Positions 3,887 to 59,646 are shown, counted from the first letter of the stretch. The stretch is 64,000 bases of DNA from Elusimicrobia bacterium RIFOXYD2_FULL_34_15 (GCA_001800605.1 MGVS01000070.1:2910-66909), one strand, 5' to 3'. A program made the numbers and translations. Notes: generated by a model from the letters alone, not told the origin.

Positions 3887-5149
3887 TTATAATGACCATC
3901 TAGGAGACAATTCTTTCCACGATTCTCTTACAGGTTTTGCTGTTGATGTAGTTTTTATGTTTTGGGCACAGGTTTTATCATAATATATTGTAGGTGTTCC
4001 GCCTCCAAGTGCAGTACCCCGAACTATAACAACTCCGTAAATATTAGGATTTGCGCTGGCGGTACATGTGCCATATACATATATTAATCCTCTGAAGCAA
4101 GGCTTGGTTATTGAAAAATCTTTAATTTGATGGTATCCGCCGTCACCGTCATATTGATTCTGATCAGTATTGTCAGGTTCAATGCCACCGGTATTAGGGG
4201 TATCAACACAATATTCTTTCCAGGCATTTACATGAGGAGTAGCTAAATAATCATCTCCTTTATTACTTGATTCAATGGTCAAATTACCTTTAACTATTAA
4301 ATTACCGTAAACATTGCAAGATTTTAATGTACAGTTGGCTTCCGTATAGTAAGTAGTAAAGGTTGTAGAAAATGCTTCTTTATATGGACCAGAGGAGCCG
4401 CCACCGGCATATGCACCTGTTAAGTCCAAATTACCAACTAAGTAGGTAGGTGTTGCCGGATTTGCAGTAGTATATGCTTGTGCATCCGTTTTGTAATCTG
4501 AAGTTATTTCAGGTATTTCCGCAACCTCAAATTCGTCATGCCATTCACGAAATTCATCATCTAAAGCGGAAGGTCCGGATGTCGGTGCGCCAGGTGTTGG
4601 GTCATTATGATTATGTCCGGCGCTACCGCAGGATATCTGACCACGAGAATATTTTCTTGGGTAAAAATTATCAGCTGAACCGCTTAAACTTATACCTAAA
4701 GTAGAAGAAACAGGCCCCCAATTAATTACAAAATTTCCGGTTACGGATATTCCGGGAGCAATCAATGCTGATGATACACCCGGTGTTTTAGAATAAATCG
4801 CCTGAATTGTTCTGCATTCATCTGTAGCTTGATCTTTTCCTGAAGATAGTATAGTTATCTGATTATCAGAAGGACCGCTTGAGAATTTTATTCTGTAATA
4901 ACCGCCTTCAACATCGGAATATGTTGAATCAGTACTGCTTCCGGTATAACCAGGGATTGCAGTTCCTAAAACAGCTATATCCCAAATGCCTGATTCATTT
5001 AATTTAAAAATACCTCTGTCTATTCCCGCTTCAGCGAGATGAAAAGCCCTTGTAGATTTTGTTTGCTTGGTAATTGATTTTGCTTCAAAAGTTGACATAT
5101 AGACAAGTGCCGGTATGACAACCCCTATAATCATAGCAATGATTAACAT
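3887..5149 (-). CDS. Type IV pilus minor pilin / assembly protein, PilX-like. The start is most likely the internal ATG at 5149. The longer ORF to 5314 reads through an intergenic repeat.
   Basis: A hydrophobic N-terminal segment (MLIIAMIIGVVIPALV) is followed by STRAFHLAEAGIDRG, resembling the PilX_N motif (RAF.AAEAGLE). The ORF-track N-terminal extension IRSRYTHKRYRSGFTRITTQ is encoded by the ATCTGCGT repeat family. Confidence 0.5.
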   Translation of the reverse strand: MLIIAMIIGVVIPALVYMSTFEAKSITKQTKSTRAFHLAEAGIDRGIFKLNESGIWDIAVLGTAIPGYTGSSTDSTYSDVEGGYYRIKFSSGPSDNQITILSSGKDQATDECRTIQAIYSKTPGVSSALIAPGISVTGNFVINWGPVSSTLGISLSGSADNFYPRKYSRGQISCGSAGHNHNDPTPGAPTSGPSALDDEFREWHDEFEVAEIPEITSDYKTDAQAYTTANPATPTYLVGNLDLTGAYAGGGSSGPYKEAFSTTFTTYYTEANCTLKSCNVYGNLIVKGNLTIESSNKGDDYLATPHVNAWKEYCVDTPNTGGIEPDNTDQNQYDGDGGYHQIKDFSITKPCFRGLIYVYGTCTASANPNIYGVVIVRGTALGGGTPTIYYDKTCAQNIKTTSTAKPVRESWKELSPRWSL

Positions 5150-5291
5150 TATGACTACAACCTGACCTTTTGAAGAACTCGAAGCTGACTTACGCTGAAC
5201 AATACGCTGATTGACGCAGACAAAATCAGTGTTTATCTGCGTTGTAATCCGCGTGAATCCGCTTCTATATCTTTTATGCGTGTATCTGCTT

Positions 5292-5690
5292 CTAATCTTT
5301 TCTAGCTTTATCATAAATTCGTCTCCGGATTTCTAATTTCTTGCTTCCAAAATTTATTAGTAAACCTAATTTATAATTACTTGCTTTTAGATAATACCAA
5401 AATTGTTTTTCATGTTCTTTTGTTATAAACGGCTGGCATTTAATTTCTATTAGGATTTTTTCATTAATAATTTTATCCGGAATGTAAGTTCCAACTTTAT
5501 TTTCATGATAATAAATATCTATTCTTTTTTGTTCTTCTACTTTAAGTCCTTGTTTTAATAATTCTAAACCAAGAGCGTTATCAACGATTGATTCCTTAAA
5601 TGCACCGTGAAATTCTTTCCAAATTTCGAAACATGCTCCTCTTATTTTATAAGTTTCTTTTTCGTATAAAAAATCCCCCATTTTTTTCAT
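5292..5690 (-). CDS. GxxExxY family protein (PD-(D/E)xK-fold, TIGR04256-like selfish small gene)
   Basis: N-terminal FLYEKETYKIRGACFEIWKEFHGAF matches the GxxExxY signature, and the C-terminal LINFGSKKLEIRR matches too. Its stop codon TAG is supplied by the repeat motif ATCTGCTTCTA. Confidence 0.7.
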   Translation of the reverse strand: MKKMGDFLYEKETYKIRGACFEIWKEFHGAFKESIVDNALGLELLKQGLKVEEQKRIDIYYHENKVGTYIPDKIINEKILIEIKCQPFITKEHEKQFWYYLKASNYKLGLLINFGSKKLEIRRRIYDKARKD

Positions 5691-9552: not shown

Positions 9553-9716
9553 CAGTATACAGTACACAGGATACAGTCTTAAGAAAAATCATAAGTTAAA
9601 ATTAAATCTAAATAGTAAGAGCTATTTGCTATTTATGCGTGCTGTGTACTGTCTTTTTAGTGCTATATTCTGTGTACTGTATTCTGTATTCTGTATACTG
9701 AGTACTGTCTTTTTAA
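9553..9716. repeat. ACAGGATACAG/CTGTATTCTGTAT repeat block with inverted-orientation arms. MITE-like element, about 165 nt.
   Basis: Left arm cagtatacagtacacaggatacagtc, right arm ctgtattctgtattctgtatactgagtactgtc. Same family as 15412-15470 and 34680-34725. Confidence 0.5.
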
Positions 9717-11632
9717 TATCTCCATGGATACCATTTTCTTTCTTCATCTTCAGGATTTTCAGTCTTTTTCTCACCGCCACCCGGTTTTATCCGGATGTTA
9801 AACCAGAATTCATAATAATTTTCTTTTTGGTCAAGAGGAATTCTTTGAATATAAGAAAAAGATGCTTCCCAACAGTGTAAATTTCTATAAACTTTTATAG
9901 CATTTTCATAATATCTGAAATTTGAAAAATTATAATTTAAAAAATCATAATTTAAAGATGTCTGCATTTTATATGCAATTTCCCAGTTTTTTGTTGGTCT
10001 AATTCCGGTTTCTGCAAAGGTGGTAAGTTTGCCCGGAGCAGCAAGGTTATAAGATACTCCGTTTTTTAAATAAGCATTTCCCTTAAAATTTATATTTGTA
10101 TCTAATTGTACGGAATTTGGTTTTCTGAATAATACGTTATAATCATTTCTATAGTAGACATTAAAAAATCTGTATGGGCTATAATCAATTTCAGTAGTTA
10201 TGCCTTCTAAACGTTCTCTAAAAGATATTATTTTTTCATTAAGCGCTCTGCGTATATTAAGTGCTGTAAAACCTCTAACAGTTAGATTATTCAAATATAC
10301 GGATTGAATTGTTCTTATCTTGTTTGTTAATACTCCATGATAATCATCATGCCGTAAATCAGGTTGTTGTTCAAATTCATGGATAAATTGGTGGTCAAAA
10401 ATTCTGGTTGAGCGTATATCCAAATCTAAATTTGTCCTGTATCGCCATGAATAAACATTTTTTTCTCTCGCAGTAATTTCGTCTCTATCTTTCCAAAATT
10501 GCTTATATCCTACTGCGGAGGTTAGTGTAATCCTTCTTGAAATAGAAAGCGGATTGGAAAATTTGATATCACCGGTTGCACCGGTTGTATAGGCACCGGT
10601 GGAAATAATTGACTTATCCCATGACCTTGCTCCGCTTAGATTTAATTCGTAATAAAGCGGTAATTTTTTTATTTTTATTTGCCTGGTCGCAAAAGATACT
10701 GCAGGAACAGATAGGGAATTCAAGATATAAATATTTTTGTTATTATCAAAGACATCACTTCTTGCAAATGTGATACGGGTTGTTGTTTGCTCTTTGTTTT
10801 TTGTAAGTGAAATCGAAGAATCTAAACTATTATAAATTTTTATCCAGTCATTTGTATAATATGCGTTAAATGACTCGTCGCTTGCATAATTTGAATTAAT
10901 TTGAGCAATCCAGTTTTGGCCTAAATTCTGCCAGTGATAAACCCTTGAATTCCACCTGATTTGTCCGGGTTTAGATGCGAAATTTTTTCCTTTAATTCTA
11001 TATCCATAAATTGTCCCGTTAACTTTGCCTTCATCTTTATAGAAAATTTCCCCTCCAGTTCCGATACCATTTATGGTAAAGTAATCAAGATAAAGTTTCC
11101 CGTAGATATATTCTGAAAGCGGATACCCAAGCATACCTTTTGCAAAAAATCCGTCGCGATTATTATAACCCGGCTTAATTTCAATTTTGTATTTTCTTTG
11201 TTTTAAATTTTTGTAATAGTATGGAAGTATTGCTGAAGGAATATCTCCTAGAAATAATACGACGTTTGTTGCGGTTATTCTTTTATTGACTATAAGGCTG
11301 GCACTTCTTGCATAATATTTGTAGTGCGGATTTTCGAGGTCACAAGTAGTGAAATAAATTCTTTTCAACAAAAGCTCTTGTGTTTTTTGATATGCTTCCA
11401 CAGAATCGCAGTTTAAATATGTATCCGTAGTTTTTAATTTTACATTGCCTGAAAAAATAGTTTTCCCTTGTAATTTATCAAACTGAACTTTATCGGAAGT
11501 TATATTGACTTCCTGCTCGCAATATAAATAAGTAACGGGTAACGAGTAACGGGTAACGAAAAGAACAGTAATGAGTAATGAGTAACGGGTAACGGGTAAT
11601 AAGATTATAAATAGTTTTTTTATATGTTTCAT
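9713..11632 (-). CDS. lptD: LPS-assembly protein LptD (OstA family)
   Basis: An OstA-like N-domain (NITSDKVQFDKLQGKTIFSGNVKL) is followed by a long beta-barrel body. The N-terminal signal region LPVTRYSLLITVLFVTRYSLPVTYL is encoded by the GTAACGGGTAACGAG repeat. Confidence 0.7.
   Translation of the reverse strand: MKHIKKLFIILLPVTRYSLLITVLFVTRYSLPVTYLYCEQEVNITSDKVQFDKLQGKTIFSGNVKLKTTDTYLNCDSVEAYQKTQELLLKRIYFTTCDLENPHYKYYARSASLIVNKRITATNVVLFLGDIPSAILPYYYKNLKQRKYKIEIKPGYNNRDGFFAKGMLGYPLSEYIYGKLYLDYFTINGIGTGGEIFYKDEGKVNGTIYGYRIKGKNFASKPGQIRWNSRVYHWQNLGQNWIAQINSNYASDESFNAYYTNDWIKIYNSLDSSISLTKNKEQTTTRITFARSDVFDNNKNIYILNSLSVPAVSFATRQIKIKKLPLYYELNLSGARSWDKSIISTGAYTTGATGDIKFSNPLSISRRITLTSAVGYKQFWKDRDEITAREKNVYSWRYRTNLDLDIRSTRIFDHQFIHEFEQQPDLRHDDYHGVLTNKIRTIQSVYLNNLTVRGFTALNIRRALNEKIISFRERLEGITTEIDYSPYRFFNVYYRNDYNVLFRKPNSVQLDTNINFKGNAYLKNGVSYNLAAPGKLTTFAETGIRPTKNWEIAYKMQTSLNYDFLNYNFSNFRYYENAIKVYRNLHCWEASFSYIQRIPLDQKENYYEFWFNIRIKPGGGEKKTENPEDEERKWYPWRY
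11523..11605. repeat. GTAACGGGTAACGAGTAACG-family tandem repeats, here inside the 5' end of lptD
   Basis: aacgggtaacgagtaacgggtaacgaaaagaacagtaatgagtaatgagtaacgggtaacgggtaat. Family members occur at 16745-16785, 17205-17260, 21050-21100, 24060-24095, 25605-25690 and 48570-48760. Confidence 0.8.
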
Positions 11633-15403: not shown

Positions 15404-15411
15404 AGGATACA

Positions 15412-15470
15412 GGATACAGGATACAGGATACAGGATACAGGATACAGGATACAGAATACAGAATACAGAA
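15412..15470. repeat. Microsatellite (CAGGATA)7(CAGAATA)3, the reverse complement of (CTGTATC)n. It lies directly upstream of the trpA start, between trpB and trpA.
   Basis: acaggatacaggatacaggatac...agaatacagaatacagaatt read directly. Confidence 0.85.
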
Positions 15471-34703: not shown

Positions 34704-34790
34704 AGGATACAGTATTATAAGTTCTCGTCTATTAACTTCAAATTATAAACTTTTTCCTCTCTACCTTTTTCCCTTTTTACCGTATCTTTA
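34680..34790. repeat. thrC-hom intergenic repeats: an ACAGGATACAG family member plus a CTCTACC family member
   Basis: ccaggatacagaatacagtacacaggatacag ... cctctctacctttttccctttttacc. Confidence 0.7.
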
Positions 34791-53780: not shown

Positions 53781-54521
53781 TTACTTAGCGAGGTCAAGTC
53801 CTTGCTGACGGATTATTTCATAAAAAATTATTGATGCTGACATCCCGGCATTTAAGGATGATATTCTTGGGGTAATAGGTATTTTAACTAAAAAATCACA
53901 TTTTTCTTTAGTAAGTCTTTTTAAACCTGAACCTTCATTTCCAATCACAACTGCTATTTTCCCTTTTATTTCTTTTCCAGAAATATTTTCACCGGACATA
54001 TCAGCGCCATAGGTCCAAAATCCGTTCTTTTTTAACGTTTCAATAGCGTAGACGATGTTTGCTACACGTACAATTGGAATATGTTCTATTGCACCTGCCG
54101 ATGCTTTTGATGTGCCTGTTGAAATTCCTGCTGAAGATCTTTGCAGTACAATAATAGCATCTATACCGAAACATACAGCAGAACGGATAATTGTTCCTAG
54201 ATTTTGCGGATCTTCAATCTCATCTAAAATACATACTTTTGCATTTTCCTTTTCATTGACAAGATGCAACAACTGTTCAAAAGGCAAATATTCTTTGGGA
54301 GATACAAATGCAACCGTACCCTGGTTATTTGGAGAATAAGCGGTTAATTTATGTGAATCTACAAATTGAACCGGTACATTTCTCTTTCTTGCAAGAGCTA
54401 TTATTTTATCGACAATTTCGCCTTCGTAATGTTTGGAAACAAATAATTTTTTAAATTTTCTTCTGCCTGCGCTTAATGCTTCAAAAATAGGATGACGGCC
54501 GTAAATAATTTCAGTATTCAT
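53781..54521 (-). CDS. rlmB: 23S rRNA (guanosine-2'-O-)-methyltransferase, SpoU/TrmH family (RlmB-like)
   Basis: SpoU_sub_bind N-domain plus SPOUT motifs LDEIEDPQNLGTIIRSA and VIGNEGSGL. Confidence 0.8.
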   Translation of the reverse strand: MNTEIIYGRHPIFEALSAGRRKFKKLFVSKHYEGEIVDKIIALARKRNVPVQFVDSHKLTAYSPNNQGTVAFVSPKEYLPFEQLLHLVNEKENAKVCILDEIEDPQNLGTIIRSAVCFGIDAIIVLQRSSAGISTGTSKASAGAIEHIPIVRVANIVYAIETLKKNGFWTYGADMSGENISGKEIKGKIAVVIGNEGSGLKRLTKEKCDFLVKIPITPRISSLNAGMSASIIFYEIIRQQGLDLAK

Positions 54522-55915
54522 AGTTTAATTATCCTTGTCCCAGATTTTGTATCTTCGACTTCAAAACCCAATTCTTTCATTTTCTGCCTTATTTCATCTG
54601 AAAGTTTCCAGTTTTTATTTTTTCTTGCTTGCTCTCTTTCTTCAGATAATTTTAAAATATTTTCAGGTATTTTTAATTCTTGTTCAAATGATAAACCAAG
54701 AATATCGCAAAGTTTCAATAGCTTGTTACGGTATAATACTATCCAGTCTTTTGCACCTTTTTTATTTTCTAAAAAGTCATTATAAAAGCCATTTAACATA
54801 TTTACAATTCCGTGAATCATAGCTAGTGATTCAGCGGTATTAAAATCGTCATCCATTGAATTTTCAAAATTTTGAATATAGTTTTTAATAGTGGTATCAT
54901 TTATATGATCAGCAGTGCCGTCAGGTAAAATATTTTTTGTTTTTTCCAAAATATTCAATATTCCAAAATATGTATTTTTAGATTGTTGGAGTTTTTCTTG
55001 CGTAAAATCGAGCGGTTGCCGGTAATGCTGAGACAAAAGCATATATCTTACGACCATCGGTTCGTATTTTTCAAAAATCTCCCTTAATGTAAAAAAATTC
55101 CCGAGTGATTTTGACATTTTTTCTTTATTAATTGTGACAAACCCGTTATGTATCCAATATTTAACAAATTGTTTTCCAAGAGCTGCTTCTGACTGTGCAA
55201 TTTCATTTTCATGATGCGGAAAAATAAGATCCTGTCCTCCGCCGTGAATGTCAAATGTATTTAAACCAAATTCTTTTAATGACATTGCGGAACATTCAAT
55301 ATGCCATCCTGGACGTCCCTTCCCCCATGGACTATCCCATGAAGGTTCACCGTCTTTAGCTTTTTTCCAAAGAGCAAAATCTAACGGGTCTTTTTTTTTC
55401 TCACCTGGTAAGACTCTTGCGCCGACTTTTAAATCTTCAATATTTCTTTTTGAAAGCTTACCATAATCTTTAAATTTTCTAACTTGAAAATATACATCAC
55501 CGTCTACAACATATCCATAACCATTGTCAATAATTTTTTTAATAAATTCTATTATCTCAGGAATTTTTTGTGTAACTCTTGGATAAGAATCAGCATCCAC
55601 AATATTAAGCTTTCTCATTTGTACAAAATAATCATCGATATATTTCTGAGCAAGCTCTGAACTCTGAATTTGCATCTCGTTACTTCTGTTTATAATTTTA
55701 TCATCTATATCAGTAAAATTCTGTACATATTTTACAGTATAACCTTTATATTTTAGATAACGGCGGATAATATCAAAAACAACGTAGCATCTTGCATGCC
55801 CGAGATGTACTTCGTCATAGGGTGTTATACCGCAGACATACATATTGACGTTATTATCAGACAATGGTTTGAATTCTTCTTTTTTACCGGAAAGAGTATT
55901 ATGAATTGTTAGCAT
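54518..55915 (-). CDS. cysS: Cysteine--tRNA ligase
   Basis: HLGHARCY (HIGH), KMSKSLGN, and Zn-binding C/H residues. Confidence 0.95.
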   Translation of the reverse strand: MLTIHNTLSGKKEEFKPLSDNNVNMYVCGITPYDEVHLGHARCYVVFDIIRRYLKYKGYTVKYVQNFTDIDDKIINRSNEMQIQSSELAQKYIDDYFVQMRKLNIVDADSYPRVTQKIPEIIEFIKKIIDNGYGYVVDGDVYFQVRKFKDYGKLSKRNIEDLKVGARVLPGEKKKDPLDFALWKKAKDGEPSWDSPWGKGRPGWHIECSAMSLKEFGLNTFDIHGGGQDLIFPHHENEIAQSEAALGKQFVKYWIHNGFVTINKEKMSKSLGNFFTLREIFEKYEPMVVRYMLLSQHYRQPLDFTQEKLQQSKNTYFGILNILEKTKNILPDGTADHINDTTIKNYIQNFENSMDDDFNTAESLAMIHGIVNMLNGFYNDFLENKKGAKDWIVLYRNKLLKLCDILGLSFEQELKIPENILKLSEEREQARKNKNWKLSDEIRQKMKELGFEVEDTKSGTRIIKL

Positions 55916-55918
55916 GAA

Positions 55919-56203
55919 TTAATTGTTTTCTTCGGCTGATTCATTAACTGAAGAATTTTTAAACCTGTTCAATTCGGATTTGAGTTTTATATATTGTACT
56001 GTAAGAACAAATAACATTGATATTAAAATTATAATTACTGTTATCAGCCAGAAGTTTTGATTTATTCTGCCCAACGCAAAACCGAAAACCCCCGCGAAAG
56101 TAGTTGTTAACCACTTGGGTGAATTATCCCACAAATTTTTTCCGTGTGTGTTCATGAACACTTTACCTTTGTTTAAAGTAGCTTCTAATCTTTCCTTATC
56201 CAT
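55919..56203 (-). CDS. Small 2-TM membrane protein, paralog A of the WD(N/S)SPKW(L/F) family. Start set at the ATG giving MDKERLEATL.
   Basis: ...GKNLWDNSPKWLTTTFAGVFGFALGRINQNFWLITVIIILISMLFVL. The ORF-track extension to 56230 runs into the ispF-tail repeat. Confidence 0.45.
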   Translation of the reverse strand: MDKERLEATLNKGKVFMNTHGKNLWDNSPKWLTTTFAGVFGFALGRINQNFWLITVIIILISMLFVLTVQYIKLKSELNRFKNSSVNESAEENN

Positions 56204-56204
56204 T

Positions 56205-56306
56205 TTTAATAATACATACAGCGCAGGCACAGATTGCTTTGCCTTTACCGATGCCCCCCACCCGTTCTCTTGTTGTTGCCTTGATGCTTATATTTTTTGT
56301 TTTTAA
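56205..56306. repeat. Partial duplicate of the ispF 3' end, copy 1, about 100 nt. It reads in frame as IKATTRERVGGIGKGKAICACAVCIIKNG*.
   Basis: ttaataatacatacagcgcaggcacagattgctttgcctttaccgatgccccccacccgttctcttgttgttgccttgatgcttatattttttgtttttaaagcc, compared with the native ispF tail at 59150-59255. Confidence 0.8.
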
Positions 56307-56328
56307 AGCCAATATTTAATATATTTAA

Positions 56329-57474
56329 TTATTCTAAATAATTTTCTTGAAATTCATCAAAACCATCAATTTTTGTAAAATCAATATTAAAATTATTTTT
56401 ATCTATTTTTGTTATTCTAACACTATCAATTCCTATTATTTTTAACTTTTCATATGTTAGTAGTTCGTCTTCTTTTAATTTTAGAACTTTTCTTAAAAGC
56501 CAATCTGAAAGAGCATTATTCGGATTTGTCATCAATGCTTTTGAATTTTCCTGACAAACTTTTGCATTTAATATTTCACCAGTAGGAATATGTAAATTAA
56601 ACGATTTATCCCTTGGTGGCAAAAAATTAGGAAAGTTTTTGTGAATTTGGATTGGAATGGGAATATATACTTCTCCCGAGTCTCTTTTTCTACCACCGGC
56701 ATTCCACTGATTTAAACCGCTTTTTTCTGCAACTACTTTGTTATTTTTTTTACTTTCTCTTAATGAATATAAAGGTAAAATTATATAATCTTCTCCTGGA
56801 ACTTCTGAGGTAGGTTGTTTTATATCAATTTTTCTAAACAAAGTTAAAATTAACTCATAAGGATCTTCTAAAATCTGTATTGGTAGGTCAATTGAGTTAG
56901 TAGGAATTTCAAATTTTTTAAATAGAGTACTTTTTGAAAAATTAAAAGAATATTCATTTTTTATATCATTAAACTGAATACCTGCTATTGAAGATTTTAT
57001 ATTTCTTATTTTATTTTCATCAATTAATTCATAATCAGTTTCAAATATTTTTAGTATTTTTTTTCCACGAGCAATACAATGATAAATGGAATTTTCAACA
57101 CCATATGTTCTTATAGCAAATTTAATTCTTTCGTTTCTTAAATTAGATAAACGCAGTACTAATTTTGTATTGTCTAAATTTCTTAATTCTTTACTAAAAG
57201 CATTGAATTCGGCAATCTTTTCAATCGCATATTTTCCTTTCACGGTAAAAGTTTTTAATCCGATGCCGATATTATCTTTTTTGGCATCAAATGCTAAATC
57301 ATCTCTTGACAGGTTATCAGCATTGAAAGATTTACAAAAGATATTCTCTGCTACTCTATAATATAGATAAGGAACTTCATTGTCACTAAACAATTTTGAT
57401 AAAGAACAAATTGCTTTTAAATAGTTAAAATAAAGTTTTTTAGAATTATCTGGTTGTGATGAAATGAATATCAC
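56329..57474 (-). CDS. Putative type II restriction endonuclease (family not recognised). A possible PD-(D/E)xK core lies in the N-terminal region.
   Basis: 381-aa ORF overlapping the 3' end of the adjacent MTase gene by 29 nt, a typical R-M arrangement. N-terminal D...FDAKK. No similarity to housekeeping families. Confidence 0.45.
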   Translation of the reverse strand: MIFISSQPDNSKKLYFNYLKAICSLSKLFSDNEVPYLYYRVAENIFCKSFNADNLSRDDLAFDAKKDNIGIGLKTFTVKGKYAIEKIAEFNAFSKELRNLDNTKLVLRLSNLRNERIKFAIRTYGVENSIYHCIARGKKILKIFETDYELIDENKIRNIKSSIAGIQFNDIKNEYSFNFSKSTLFKKFEIPTNSIDLPIQILEDPYELILTLFRKIDIKQPTSEVPGEDYIILPLYSLRESKKNNKVVAEKSGLNQWNAGGRKRDSGEVYIPIPIQIHKNFPNFLPPRDKSFNLHIPTGEILNAKVCQENSKALMTNPNNALSDWLLRKVLKLKEDELLTYEKLKIIGIDSVRITKIDKNNFNIDFTKIDGFDEFQENYLE

Positions 57475-58402
57475 TTTGATAAGTCTCCTTTAGTGGTAAT
57501 TGATTTTCAATTGTTTTTTTCGAATTTAATATTCTTTCTTCTGCCAAATTACAAAATTTTTCATTTATTTCAAAACCAATATAATTTCTATTTGATACTA
57601 TACTTGCTATGGCAGTTGTACCACTTCCCATAAAAGGGTCTAAAACTATATCGTTTTCTTTAGAAGTTGTTAAAACCAAAGGTTTTATTAGTGACTCAGG
57701 ATAAGATGCTTGATGTTCTCCAAAAGGTTCTATTCCGCATCTTATTATATCTCTGTGATAATTAAGCTGTTTTGCCATATTTAAGTCAAAATAATATTTT
57801 CGTGATTTTACAAAATGAAAAATATGTTCATAAACAGGATATCTTCTATCAGGTGAATAAGAGGGAACAGGATTAGGCTTTTCCCAAATTATTTTATTGC
57901 GTAAAATCCAACCTTGTTCTTGCATTCCCATTGCAACTCTTTCAGGTAACATTAAAAGTTGTTTATATTGTAAATATTTTCCATTGGGCTTTGCAATTTT
58001 ATGTTCTTTATAATGTTTATCTGTTTTTCTTGCATATTTTCCTTTATTTCGCACAAATCCTTTTGTACCAAAATATACATCTCCAATATTTAAATAAAAA
58101 GACCCTTCTTTATTTAAAACTCTTTTTAATTCATTACTATATTTTAATAAATTTGTGACATATTCTAATGGATGCTCTTCTCTTCCAAGAGTTTCATTCC
58201 CGTAGATCCTGCATCCAAAATATGGTGGACTTGTAATAATTAAATTAACAAAATTATCTGGCAATTCTTTTATTAATTTTAAAGAGTCTCCACAGATGAT
58301 TTTATTAACAAAATCAATCCCATTTTTATTGAGATTCTTTGTATCATAAATAACAATATTATTTTTAAATAATAATTTTTTTCTTTTTTTCTTTTTATAC
58401 AT
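57446..58402 (-). CDS. DNA methyltransferase, beta-class amino-MTase (N4-cytosine or N6-adenine)
   Basis: Motif IV SPPY precedes motif I DPFMGSGTT. ParB-less type II solitary-size enzyme, 318 aa. Confidence 0.85.
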   Translation of the reverse strand: MYKKKKRKKLLFKNNIVIYDTKNLNKNGIDFVNKIICGDSLKLIKELPDNFVNLIITSPPYFGCRIYGNETLGREEHPLEYVTNLLKYSNELKRVLNKEGSFYLNIGDVYFGTKGFVRNKGKYARKTDKHYKEHKIAKPNGKYLQYKQLLMLPERVAMGMQEQGWILRNKIIWEKPNPVPSYSPDRRYPVYEHIFHFVKSRKYYFDLNMAKQLNYHRDIIRCGIEPFGEHQASYPESLIKPLVLTTSKENDIVLDPFMGSGTTAIASIVSNRNYIGFEINEKFCNLAEERILNSKKTIENQLPLKETYQSDIHFITTR

Positions 58403-58404
58403 TT

Positions 58405-58605
58405 TTAAAAATCTAACTCTTTTTTATAACTTATATTTAAAACTAAAACAATAGACAATACTATGATAAGAACTAAAAAAATTATGCTTATCCAAAATGG
58501 TGGACCTGCTTGAATTTTGGATAATATAGCTGTAAAAATTATAGCAACAATGGTAATAAACCATTTAGGTATTTTATACAAGATATTCTTTGCCAAGTTA
58601 CTCAT
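58405..58605 (-). CDS. Small 2-TM membrane protein, paralog B of the SPKW family
   Basis: MSNLAKNILYKIPKWFITIVAIIFTAILSKIQAGPPFWISIIFLVLIIVL. The ORF-track N-terminal extension (KAKQSVPALYVLL) is the ispF-tail repeat read in another frame. Confidence 0.4.
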   Translation of the reverse strand: MSNLAKNILYKIPKWFITIVAIIFTAILSKIQAGPPFWISIIFLVLIIVLSIVLVLNISYKKELDF

Positions 58606-58607
58606 AA

Positions 58608-58672
58608 TTGTTATTAATAATACATACAGCGCAGGCACAGATTGCTTTGCCTTTACCGATGCCCCCACCCGT
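58608..58672. repeat. Partial duplicate of the ispF 3' end, copy 2, about 65 nt. 58 nt are identical to copy 1 apart from a single-C indel.
   Basis: taataatacatacagcgcaggcacagattgctttgcctttaccgatgcccccacccgttt. Confidence 0.8.
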
Positions 58673-58676
58673 TTTT

Positions 58677-59141
58677 CTAAAACTTTAGTTCTTTTTTGAC
58701 AAATTCCAGAGCTTCTTTAAGATCAAATTTTTTACAATCTTCATTCATCAGTTCTCTAATACTGTTTCCGACATCGCAGGAAAAATGCGCTCCGAATCCA
58801 TAAGTTTGAGGAAAATATTTCATTTGTCTAGGTTCTCTACAACAAGTACAATATGGTCTATTATCGATTGTTTTTTTATTATAATTTATCAACCATTTTA
58901 CGCCAAATCTTGAAATAAATTCTTTTTTATCTTTTCTTTGAGTTATTTGTATATACTTCTTAGTTTTGAAATATAAAACAATGAATACAAATAAAGCAAA
59001 AACTAAAATTATAATAGCTATAATCGGCCAGAATAACTGACCTTTTTTAATTTTTAAGATAGTGGTTGTTAAAATTGCTGTAAAAAGTACAAGCAACCAT
59101 TTTGGGGAAGAATCCCATATATTTTTAGCCCACTTAATCAT
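58677..59141 (-). CDS. Small 2-TM membrane protein, paralog C of the SPKW family, with a C-terminal Cys-rich (Zn-ribbon-like) domain
   Basis: MIKWAKNIWDSSPKWLLVLFTAIL..KKGQLFWPIIAIIILVFALF. C-terminal CTCCREPRQ...HFSCD. Its ATG overlaps the ispF stop (ATGATTAA). Confidence 0.45.
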   Translation of the reverse strand: MIKWAKNIWDSSPKWLLVLFTAILTTTILKIKKGQLFWPIIAIIILVFALFVFIVLYFKTKKYIQITQRKDKKEFISRFGVKWLINYNKKTIDNRPYCTCCREPRQMKYFPQTYGFGAHFSCDVGNSIRELMNEDCKKFDLKEALEFVKKELKF

Positions 59142-59646
59142 ATTTTCCGTTTTTTATTATACATACAGCATAGGCGCAGATTGCTTTACCTTTGCCGATG
59201 TTTCCAACTCCTTCGTTTGTTGTTGCTTTGATGCTTATATTCTTTGTTTTTAAAATCTTTGAAATTTTACTTTTCATATTTTCTATATATGAAGAAATTT
59301 TTGGCTGTTCTGCAATAACCATAGAATCTATATTTTCAATTTTGTATCCTAATTTTTTAATTAAATTATGTGTTTTTTCCAGCAAAATTAAACTTGAAAT
59401 ATTTTTAAACTTTTTATCAGAATTTGGAAAATGAATGCCTATATCACCTAGCCCTGCCGCACCAAGAAGTGAATCACAAATTGCATGAAGCAGGACATCA
59501 CCGTCAGAATGAGCAAGCATCCCTTTTTTAAATTTTATTTTTACTCCACCTAAATAAAGAGGCTTACCTTTTACTAATCTATGAATATCATAACCAAAAC
59601 CAATACGGATAGTGGTGTTCTGATGTTCTATAGTTCTACTGTTCAT
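59134..59646 (-). CDS. ispF: 2-C-methyl-D-erythritol 2,4-cyclodiphosphate synthase
   Basis: IGFGYDIHRL, HSDGDVLLHAICDSLLGAAGLGDIGIHFP, and C-terminal KATTNEGVGNIGKGKAICAYAVCII, which corresponds to the canonical IspF C-terminus. Confidence 0.9.
   Translation of the reverse strand: MNSRTIEHQNTTIRIGFGYDIHRLVKGKPLYLGGVKIKFKKGMLAHSDGDVLLHAICDSLLGAAGLGDIGIHFPNSDKKFKNISSLILLEKTHNLIKKLGYKIENIDSMVIAEQPKISSYIENMKSKISKILKTKNISIKATTNEGVGNIGKGKAICAYAVCIIKNGKYD

What the first reader, a model, noticed from the sequence alone, without database searches (positions are those of the whole stretch)
55919..59262. Cassette array between ispF and cysS: a type II R-M pair plus three small-membrane-protein genes, each preceded by a copy of the ispF 3' tail
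ispD-ispF and cysS are commonly adjacent in bacteria, so I expected the same here. Instead a block of about 3.2 kb separates them.

The native ispF tail (59150-59255) is followed by paralog C, whose ATG overlaps the ispF stop (ATGATTAA). A 65-nt partial copy of the ispF tail (58608-58672) then precedes paralog B. Next come a beta-class MTase and a putative REase. A 100-nt partial copy of the tail (56205-56306) then precedes paralog A, and cysS follows.

Both copies keep the ispF reading frame (IKATTRERVGGIGKGKAICACAVCII vs native IKATTNEGVGNIGKGKAICAYAVCII) and the same overlapping stop/start junction with the downstream small gene (aaaaATGGATAA, aattATGAGTAA). Copies 1 and 2 are 58/58 identical to each other but diverged from the resident ispF tail.

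This is the signature expected if [ispF-tail + small gene] cassettes were acquired or duplicated serially at the 3' end of ispF, analogous to tRNA-3'-end integrative elements or integron-like cassette stacking. The R-M module is nested in the array. No recombinase is visible in this window.
Basis: seen in the sequence. Interest (0 to 1): 0.8.

Follow-up and report, generated by a model that had tools for sequence, protein, structure and literature searches.

The report
Restriction-modification genes inside duplicated small-gene array
Between the housekeeping genes ispF and cysS, this uncultured Elusimicrobia bacterium has a small family of membrane-protein genes that multiplied by local duplication, each extra copy dragging along the end of ispF. 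A mobile restriction-modification gene pair has recently landed among them, so this is a real but fairly ordinary example of how such genes move.

Summary
On the minus strand the order is ispF | C | tailB | B | MTase | REase | tailA | A | cysS. TailA and tailB are exact over 53 nt (61/62 with one indel), not 58/58, and tailA is about 83% identical to the true ispF end.

It is not an integron-like or integrase-driven array. No ORF of 200 aa or more in the window is a recombinase, and the tails show no RNA structure.

A, B and C are old paralogues (33-36% identity). A and C are under purifying selection. A pseudo-tail also precedes A in a sister species. Its 58-nt core is conserved well above neutral, probably as the start region of the small gene.

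The R-M pair is a separate, recently mobile unit:
- Its dS is about 0.42, against 0.9-1.4 for flanking genes, and its GC3 is lower.
- It sits in a different slot in the sister species, where it is present or absent among 99%-identical strains.
- A related MTase is fused to a cysS head in a third lineage, and other R-M genes fill the interval in a fourth.

Best reading: tandem duplication of [ispF tail + small gene], R-M invasion, then recombination between the tails. This is a new member of known kinds.

The parts
59134..59646 (-). ispF (2-C-methyl-D-erythritol 2,4-cyclodiphosphate synthase). Its last ~110 nt (59143-59254) are the resident 'tail0' copy of the repeat.
   Evidence: Pfam YgbB, E 4e-63. 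Repeat family D1.
58677..59141 (-). Gene C: 154 aa with two TM helices plus a beta-rich C-terminal domain carrying four invariant Cys. Its ATG overlaps the ispF stop (ATGATTAA).
   Evidence: The orthologue in L005 is 69% identical, with dN/dS 0.16. A third-lineage orthologue, P0125, lies directly after ispF. The family has only 11 hits among 1.8e9 proteins. Invariant residues are G80, W83, P96, C98, C100, C101 and C122.
58606..58675 (-). tailB: a partial pseudo-copy of the ispF 3' end (core only). It begins 6 nt after the stop of C.
   Evidence: 53 nt identical to tailA. Alignments. Frames.
58405..58605 (-). Gene B: 66 aa, two TM helices, paralogue of A and C. An alternative in-frame GTG start lies at 58638. 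B is absent from the sister species.
   Evidence: 33% identity to A and to C; 29/66 identity to the N-domain of the L093 C orthologue. The KKELDF* end resembles the KKELKF* end of C (sequence).
57446..58402 (-). Type II beta-class N4/N6 DNA methyltransferase of the mobile R-M unit.
   Evidence: Pfam N6_N4_Mtase, E 1e-45. PADLOC MTase_II, E 4e-75. dS 0.42 against L005. GC3 0.144.
56329..57474 (-). Type II restriction endonuclease of the NgoFVII family with a B3-like C-terminal domain. It overlaps the MTase by 29 nt.
   Evidence: Pfam RE_NgoFVII_C, E 4e-12. PADLOC REase_II, E 6e-133. More than 4,700 homologues in many phyla. dS 0.43. GC3 0.136.
56204..56306 (-). tailA: a ~100-nt pseudo-copy of the ispF 3' end. 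Its 5' 36 nt is a recent ispF-like copy. Its 58-nt core matches tailB and is conserved in the sister species.
   Evidence: Identity matrix. Core is 0.75 identical to L005 tailA', against a shuffle level of 0.50 +/- 0.04.
55919..56203 (-). Gene A: 94 aa, two TM helices. An alternative GTG start at 56230 would give 103 aa.
   Evidence: The orthologue in L005 is 86% identical, with dN/dS 0.06 and dS 1.26. The upstream start codon is conserved, GTG here and ATG in L005. Gene callers give 103 aa here and 97 aa in L005-species contigs.
54518..55915 (-). cysS (cysteinyl-tRNA synthetase), the downstream boundary of the variable interval.
   Evidence: Pfam tRNA-synt_1e, E 1e-138.

Best explanation
Two separate processes are superimposed.

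(1) A clade of groundwater Elusimicrobia carries a clade-restricted small membrane-protein gene directly downstream of ispF. Its translation start is embedded in or abuts the ispF 3' end.
- The gene multiplied by tandem segmental duplication. The left boundary of the duplicated unit lay about 60-100 nt inside ispF, so every extra copy is preceded by a pseudo-copy of the ispF tail.
- The 58 nt proximal to the small gene have been kept by selection. The most likely reason is that they supply the small gene's translation-initiation region and a short N-terminal extension, read in a frame different from ispF.

(2) A compact Type II R-M pair with no mobility gene of its own has recently been inserted into this array. 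It consists of a beta-class MTase and an NgoFVII-family REase. It rides on the host operon's transcription, and in sister lineages on the host's translation signals.

The tails are direct repeats and recombine. That accounts for the 53-nt identity of tailA and tailB despite the deep divergence of A and B. It also accounts for the freshly ispF-like 5' part of tailA and the absence of B in the sister species.

Shown:
- The repeats exist.
- A, B and C are paralogues, and A and C are under purifying selection.
- The pseudo-tail core is conserved.
- The R-M pair is recent and mobile.

Inferred:
- Tandem duplication as the origin of the array.
- The leader or start-region function of the core.
- Gene conversion or unequal crossover between the tails.
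For: Repeats.

Paralogy: A, B and C are 33-36% identical over the 2-TM domain.

Vertical inheritance and selection:
- A against A': dS 1.26, dN/dS 0.06.
- C against C': dS 1.03, dN/dS 0.16.

Related lineages:
- L094 has a single small gene directly after ispF, then cysS.
- L093 has ispF | C'' with an ATGA overlap.
- Sister species L005 has C' - one degenerate tail - A'.

Age of the pseudo-tails: tailA, tailB and L005 tailA' share derived states, such as GGTAAAGGC where both real ispF tails have GGCAAAGGT. They are therefore an old lineage, not recent copies of ispF.

Conservation of the core:
- True intergenic DNA between the two species is at shuffle level (0.52 vs 0.49; 0.60 vs 0.55).
- The tail core is 0.75 identical against a shuffle level of 0.50 +/- 0.04.

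Start region:
- In the small-gene frame, a start codon sits upstream of the annotated ATG in all three pseudo-tails: 9 codons up for A (GTG) and A' (ATG), and 11 codons up for B (GTG).
- The two in-frame stops of the real ispF tail are replaced by TTA TTA in the window and AGA AGA in L005.
- Within the L005 species the far-upstream TTG is lost in some strains, but the ATG is kept.

Recent mobility of the R-M pair:
- dS is 0.42-0.43 against 0.88-1.36 for six flanking genes.
- GC3 is 0.14 against 0.20-0.23.
- In L005 it sits between ispF and C'.
- It is absent from L110 and L113, whose flanks are 98.6-99.9% identical to L005. There, 107 nt are replaced by 2,194 nt.
- In L094 an MTase of the same family (87.7% identical to the window's over the 65 nt visible before the contig ends) is fused in frame to 12 codons of the cysS head.
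- REases 78-82% identical lie between murB and ddl and in other unrelated contexts.
- Different MTases, one next to a weak PvuII-like hit (E 1.4e-3, below the Pfam threshold), fill the interval in L093.

No ORF of 200 aa or more in the window is a recombinase.
Against: - Only two genomes show the full interval, so the order of events cannot be reconstructed.
- No single simple event produces the mosaic of tailA (5' part 34/36 to ispF, core 45/57) together with a tailB that lacks the 5' part. At least one extra conversion or recombination step must be assumed.
- A function for the tail core is inferred from conservation alone. There is no clear Shine-Dalgarno motif at the right spacing.
- The nucleotide conservation upstream of the 1-nt indel is not explained by a common reading frame.
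- B has no orthologue, so its status as a functional gene is untested.
- The lower dS of the R-M genes could be slightly exaggerated by their extreme AT bias.
Confidence: 0.6

Rival explanations
1. The tailB/tailA pair is the footprint of one event of 'R-M insertion with long target duplication' (Nobusato 2000; Furuta, Abe and Kobayashi 2010). A [B-MTase-REase] segment entered the tail in front of A and duplicated about 60 nt of it. B would have come in with the R-M unit from a related donor.
For: - The published criteria are formally met: R and M both lie inside, the insert is about 2.35 kb, the direct repeats are 53 nt exact, and there is no mobility gene.
- The sister species has C' - one tail - A', which looks like the empty site.
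- In L094 a copy of the cysS head lies to the left of an MTase of the same family. That is what a duplicated target would look like.
- The perfect identity of the repeats fits a recent event, as does the low dS of the R-M genes.
Against: - The 5' 36-42 nt of the tail lies on the wrong copy. It is attached to the right repeat, after the REase, while the left repeat starts 6 nt after the stop of C without it.
- The one R-M insertion whose empty site is actually seen (L005 against L110) is a substitution of 107 nt with no target duplication.
- B is a paralogue of the resident genes, so it would have to come from a related array.
- The right end of the L094 insertion is not on the contig.
Confidence: 0.25
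2. This is a site-specific cassette system. The ispF tail acts as an attachment site, like attC/attI or the 3' end of a tRNA, at which a recombinase encoded elsewhere inserts [tail + gene] cassettes.
For: - Three co-oriented units share a repeat and the same ATGNNTAA junction geometry.
- The gene content of the interval differs between four lineages.
- In L005 the MTase ATG occupies exactly the slot after the ispF tail, with the same ATGTATAA overlap.
Against: - There is no integrase or transposase among window ORFs of 200 aa or more, nor within 10 kb either side of the locus.
- The tails have no significant secondary structure (z from -1.1 to +0.5) and no inverted repeat.
- There are no Rfam hits.
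- The R-M unit inserts at three different sequences that share only an A-run: the ispF end, the end of B, and cysS codon 12.
- The L005 insertion shows no repeat at its ends.
- The pseudo-tail before A predates the species split and is under selection.
Confidence: 0.05
3. The similarity of the tails is due to chance or to a metagenome assembly artefact, such as a chimeric join at a repeat.
For: The sequence comes from a metagenome assembly, and AT-rich DNA gives many weak repeats (one search lists many short families at 72-90% identity).
Against: - A 50-nt exact repeat is found where 0 are expected in 100 shuffles.
- A 96-nt alignment at 84% identity has E 2e-14.
- The same arrangement appears in contigs from several samples and assemblers.
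- The repeat (53 nt) is shorter than the assembler's k of 141 implied by the contig names.
- A homologous tail lies in front of A' in a separate species.
Confidence: 0.01

Closest known systems
Insertion of restriction-modification gene units with long target duplication (Nobusato et al. 2000; Furuta, Abe and Kobayashi 2010, NAR 38:2428, PMC2853133)
   Same: - An R+M pair with no transposase or integrase.
- Flanked by direct repeats longer than 30 bp that occur once at the corresponding site of a related genome.
- AT-richer than the host.
- Polymorphic between close relatives.
- Different R-M systems substitute for one another at the same locus.
   Different: - The flanked segment also contains a paralogue (B) of the resident genes.
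- The repeat is a fragment of an essential gene's coding end. It already existed before the R-M arrived and is conserved in a sister species.
- The layout of the 5' part of the repeat does not fit a simple duplication.
- The only insertion here with a visible empty site (L005 against L110) has no duplication.
Ordinary tandem segmental duplication producing a paralogue array with a truncated fragment of the upstream gene at each junction
   Same: - Head-to-tail paralogues (C, B, A).
- Each extra copy is preceded by the same 3' fragment of the upstream gene.
- The direct repeats then allow unequal crossover, deletion and gene conversion.
   Different: A gene fragment left by a duplication normally decays. 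Here its proximal 58 nt remain 75% identical between species whose intergenic DNA is saturated. Its frame-0 stops have also been removed, which suggests it was recruited as the leader or N-terminus of the small genes.
Integron cassette arrays and integrative islands at the 3' ends of tRNA or protein genes
   Same: - Co-oriented promoterless units stacked behind a fixed point.
- A partial copy of the target gene's 3' end at unit boundaries.
- Variable content between relatives.
   Different: - No integrase.
- No attC-like structure.
- The repeats are old and selected rather than att scars.
- The mobile R-M unit uses several unrelated insertion points.
NgoFVII / BfiI-type Type II restriction enzymes (B3-like DNA-binding domain) with beta-class N4/N6 methyltransferases
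   Same: - The REase C-terminal domain matches Pfam RE_NgoFVII_C.
- PADLOC REase_II and MTase_II models match strongly.
- The M and R genes overlap.
   Different: - The recognition sequence is unknown.
- The N-terminal catalytic domain is not assigned by Pfam.
- No solved structure was found by sequence.

Membership tests
Type II restriction-modification system | A DNA methyltransferase with SAM-dependent N6/N4 MTase motifs | tested here: met
   Pfam N6_N4_Mtase, E 1e-45, full-length 1-221/221. PADLOC MTase_II, E 4e-75.
Type II restriction-modification system | An adjacent restriction endonuclease gene | tested here: met
   PADLOC REase_II PDLC03479, E 6e-133 over 15-376. Pfam RE_NgoFVII_C, E 4e-12. 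The genes overlap by 29 nt.
Type II restriction-modification system | Sequence-specific cleavage blocked by the cognate methylation | not testable with these tools
   Needs enzymology or methylome data.
R-M insertion with long target duplication (Furuta et al. 2010 criteria) | Both R and M homologues lie inside the repeat-flanked segment, and the segment is under 20 kb | tested here: met
   The MTase, the REase and B lie between 58613 and 56259, about 2.35 kb.
R-M insertion with long target duplication (Furuta et al. 2010 criteria) | Flanking direct repeats longer than 30 bp and highly identical | tested here: met
   53/53 exact, or 61/62 with one indel.
R-M insertion with long target duplication (Furuta et al. 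2010 criteria) | No other mobile-element gene is involved | tested here: met
   No integrase or transposase within 10 kb either side or among window ORFs of 200 aa or more.
R-M insertion with long target duplication (Furuta et al. 2010 criteria) | A related genome shows the empty site with one contiguous copy of the repeat, and the insert is simply bracketed by two copies of it | tested here: inconclusive
   L005 and L110 have C' - one tail - A'. However, they are a different species. B is also missing there. In the window the 5' part of the tail is attached to the right copy only.
Integron gene-cassette array | An IntI tyrosine recombinase with attI next to the array | tested here: not met
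   No recombinase domain in any ORF of 200 aa or more in the 64-kb window, or in the flanks of the 97-kb contig.
Integron gene-cassette array | attC sites, which are imperfect inverted repeats that fold as hairpins, at each cassette boundary | tested here: not met
   Fold z-scores are -1.07, +0.49 and -0.55. No inverted repeat lies in the tails.
Integrative element at the 3' end of a gene (att duplication) | The element encodes its own integrase and is bounded by attL/attR copies of the gene end | tested here: not met
   There is no integrase. The distal tail copy is shared with a sister species at saturated neutral divergence and is under constraint.
Tandem segmental duplication array | Head-to-tail paralogous units, each starting at the same point inside the upstream gene | tested here: met
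   A, B and C are 33-36% identical over the 2-TM domain. Each of A and B is preceded by an ispF-tail fragment ending at the same ATGNNTAA junction.
Tandem segmental duplication array | A single-copy ancestral state in an outgroup | tested here: met
   L094 has ispF, one 71-aa 2-TM gene, then the cysS start. More distant relatives have ispF-(cysE)-cysS with no such gene.

The most novel reading that the evidence does not exclude
The ispF/cysS stop-start junction in this clade may be a recombinase-independent landing pad. Incoming gene units, whether R-M pairs or small membrane-protein genes, would be captured so that their ATG falls into an ATGNNTAA overlap or an in-frame fusion with the end or head of an essential gene. 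They would thereby take over that gene's translation signals. The duplicated ispF tail would serve both as the recombination substrate that shuffles units and as the portable translation-coupling leader that keeps them expressed. In effect this would be a primitive, homology-driven cassette system embedded in an essential operon.
Probability: 0.12. Interest if true: 0.7.

Novelty: new member of a known kind. Interest (0 to 1): 0.4.

Why it matters
- It gives a clean natural example, from uncultivated Elusimicrobia, of a naked Type II R-M pair moving between and within closely related genomes. The evidence includes a presence/absence polymorphism at 99% flank identity, three different insertion slots in one 3-kb interval, and in-frame capture of host gene ends.
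- It shows that a fragment of an essential gene's coding end, carried along by a tandem duplication, can be retained under selection as the 5' region of the duplicated neighbour.
- For annotation, the 'hypothetical' ORFs called here begin inside ispF-derived sequence. The ispF-like pseudo-ORFs are not genes.
- It does not reveal a new kind of mobile element or defence system.

Tried and rejected
- RNA element in the tails: fold z-scores were not significant. Rfam at gathering threshold found nothing in the window, and only one chance-level hit in L005.
- Promoters and terminators: promoter-like sites are at chance level, and there is no terminator on the gene strand. The block looks like one operon.
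- Function of A, B and C: nothing above threshold in Pfam, NCBIfam, PHROGs or PADLOC.
- The AF2 model of C (pLDDT 74) has no significant PDB fold match. The best E-value is 0.26, and the phage Rip1 hit has probability 0.54 and TM about 0.3, which is only a lead.
- The afdb50 library was unavailable.
- No C relatives were found in viral contigs.
- Contexts of distant C homologues were uninformative.
- The metagenome scan with cysS returned only distant relatives, at most 64% identical. It was useful for ancestral synteny but not for close comparisons.
- The 112-nt GC-rich segment next to the L005 R-M was tested as an inverted or shared element. It has no similarity, forward or reverse, to the empty-site spacer or to any other locus.
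- The REase has no sequence match to any solved structure.
- A second copy of the cysS head in the window: none found.
- A simple 'long target duplication' model for the window was considered and downgraded, because the 5' part of the tail is on the wrong repeat.

Full report
**What is there**

All genes in the region lie on the minus strand. Pfam and PADLOC confirm the identities.
- ispD 60287-59643
- ispF 59646-59134
- C 59141-58677 (154 aa)
- a 65-70-nt ispF-tail fragment, tailB (58606-58675)
- B 58605-58405 (66 aa)
- a beta-class N4/N6 MTase 58402-57446
- an NgoFVII-family REase 57474-56329
- a ~100-nt ispF-tail fragment, tailA (56204-56306)
- A 56203-55919 (94 aa)
- cysS 55915-54518

A protein identical to C is named in NCBI as coming from 'Elusimicrobia bacterium RIFOXYD2_FULL_34_15'. 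The same arrangement occurs on contigs from several samples.

**The repeats are real**

- The repeat finder returns one three-copy family.
- A 50-nt core occurs exactly twice, where none is expected by chance.
- TailA and tailB are identical over 53 nt, or 61/62 with one G-run indel.
- TailA is 83/100 identical to the resident tail, but unevenly: 34/36 in the 5' part and 45/57 in the core.
- All three junctions have the small gene's ATG five bases before the end of the tail-frame stop: ATGATTAA, ATGAGTAA and ATGGATAA.

**The surrounding synteny**

More distant relatives recovered with cysS keep PIN-domain gene - ispD - ispF - (cysE) - cysS. IspF directly abuts cysS in at least seven loci.

**The small genes are old, vertically inherited paralogues**

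- A, B and C share a two-helix membrane domain at only 33-36% identity.
- In the sister species L005 (Elusimicrobia UBA9627; ispF 79% identical), A' is 86% and C' is 69% identical to A and C. Their dS values are 1.26 and 1.03 and their dN/dS values are 0.06 and 0.16.
- The families are tiny. A word-indexed search finds two clusters each among 5.8e9 proteins. A full HMMER profile search finds 11 hits among 1.8e9.
- Those hits reveal two further lineages. In L093 a C orthologue follows ispF with an ATGA overlap. In L094 a single 71-aa two-helix gene with its own Shine-Dalgarno sequence follows ispF and is followed by the start of cysS. L094 looks like the single-copy ancestral state.
- C and its distant relatives share a C-terminal domain with invariant G, W, P and four Cys.
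- No family, defence or fold match was found for A, B or C.

**The pseudo-tail is old and partly conserved**

- L005 also has one ispF-tail fragment directly in front of A'.
- TailA, tailB and L005 tailA' share derived states that both real ispF tails lack, for example GGTAAAGGC against GGCAAAGGT.
- Genuine intergenic DNA between the two species is at shuffle level: 0.52 against 0.49, and 0.60 against 0.55. The 58-nt core next to the small gene is 0.75 identical against 0.50 +/- 0.04. The 5' part of the tail has fully decayed in L005, at 0.56 against 0.57.
- In the small-gene frame, a start codon sits 9 codons upstream of the annotated ATG in A (GTG) and A' (ATG), and 11 codons upstream in B (GTG).
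- The two stops that the real ispF tail carries in that frame are replaced by TTA TTA in the window and AGA AGA in L005.
- Within the L005 species the far-upstream TTG is lost in some strains while the ATG is kept.
- I infer that the core survives because it supplies the start region, and perhaps ten N-terminal codons, of the duplicated small gene.
- It has no significant RNA fold and no Rfam match, and promoter-like matches are at chance level.

**The R-M pair is a separate and recently mobile unit**

- Against L005 its dS is 0.42-0.43, while six flanking genes give 0.88-1.36.
- Its GC3 is 0.14, against 0.20-0.23 for the neighbours.
- In L005 it lies between ispF and C', with the MTase ATG overlapping a new ispF stop (ATGTATAA).
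- Contigs L110 and L113 have flanks 98.6-99.9% identical to L005 but lack it. There, 107 nt stand in place of 2,194 nt (an 11-nt leader, M, R and a 112-nt GC-rich stretch), with no target duplication.
- L113 comes from the same study as the window's samples.
- In L094 an MTase start of the same family (87.7% identical to the window's over 65 nt) is fused in frame to the first 12 codons of cysS: MLKIYNTLSGKK|MYKKKK... The contig ends there, so no REase is visible.
- In L093 the interval after C'' holds two other MTases. One sits next to a weak PvuII-like hit (E 1.4e-3, below the Pfam threshold).
- REases 78-82% identical lie between murB and ddl in another Elusimicrobiota lineage and in other unrelated contexts.
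- The REase family has thousands of members in many phyla and a few in phages.

**No recombinase**

Pfam assignments within 10 kb either side of the locus, and for all window ORFs of 200 aa or more, are housekeeping functions or unknown. None is an integrase or transposase.

**Interpretation**

The simplest history has these steps:
1. A single small gene lay coupled to the end of ispF.
2. Tandem duplication occurred with a left boundary inside ispF, giving C - tail - A before the two species split.
3. A further copy (B) arose in the window lineage, or was lost by tail-by-tail deletion in L005.
4. The R-M pair invaded recently and independently.

The 53-nt identity of tailA and tailB contrasts with 33% identity of A and B. 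It requires a recent recombination event between the tails. That event could be gene conversion, or a duplication made when [B-]M-R entered.

The published class 'R-M insertion with long target duplication' (PMC2853133) is the closest known phenomenon, and its formal criteria are met. However, the 5' part of the tail is attached to the right-hand repeat only. The one insertion here with a visible empty site shows no duplication. I therefore rank it second.

B is closest to the N-domain of the L093 C orthologue (29/66), and it ends in KKELDF* like C's KKELKF*. It may therefore be an internally deleted C-type copy. This is tentative.

**Verdict**

The integron-like or integrative-element interpretation is not supported. 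The locus is a small paralogue array with selected ispF-tail leaders and is a hot spot for naked R-M units. It is a new member of known kinds and of moderate interest.

Noticed in passing
L094:2099-2212: The first 12 codons of cysS (MLKIYNTLSGKK) are fused in frame to the start of an MTase related to the window's. The MTase could therefore be translated from the cysS start signals. The contig ends before the REase and the presumed intact cysS.
   Followed up: partly
L005:12538-12649: A 112-nt segment with about 50% GC came in with the R-M pair in the sister species. It is absent from the empty allele (L110) and has no similarity to any other fetched sequence or to Rfam. Its origin and role are unknown.
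   Followed up: partly
L093:8468-11090: A third lineage has different cargo after the C orthologue: a 291-aa MTase, a 159-aa protein with a weak PvuII-like hit (E 1.4e-3, below threshold), a 280-aa MTase and an unknown partial ORF. All these MTases begin MYK(K/N)(K/I)KRK. The first 25 nt of the L093 M1 gene are identical to the L094 MTase start, although the M1 protein differs from the window's MTase beyond its first residues.
   Followed up: partly
window 15404-15425 and 34704-34716: Copies of the heptamer TGTATCC (three in tandem at the first site) lie immediately upstream of the GTG starts predicted for trpA and for a PALP-domain gene.
   Followed up: no
window 9713-11632 and 3887-5314 (minus strand): Two long ORFs (639 and 475 aa) have no Pfam match at E <= 1e-5.
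   Followed up: no
P0129-P0132: C belongs to a very rare family of membrane-anchored proteins. They share an FG.KW...P(Y/F)C.CC...C domain with four invariant cysteines, probably zinc-binding, and have no annotation. The best and non-significant fold resemblance is to phage HK446 Rip1.
   Followed up: partly
P0023: A 620-aa fused REase-MTase homologue, 66% identical, is deposited under a freshwater mussel genome (Potamilus streckersoni). It is probably bacterial contamination or a transfer.
   Followed up: no
L106:8432-9249: In one strain of the sister species the SpoU-type methyltransferase gene downstream of cysS is called as two ORFs (76 + 188 aa). This suggests a frameshift or an assembly error.
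   Followed up: no
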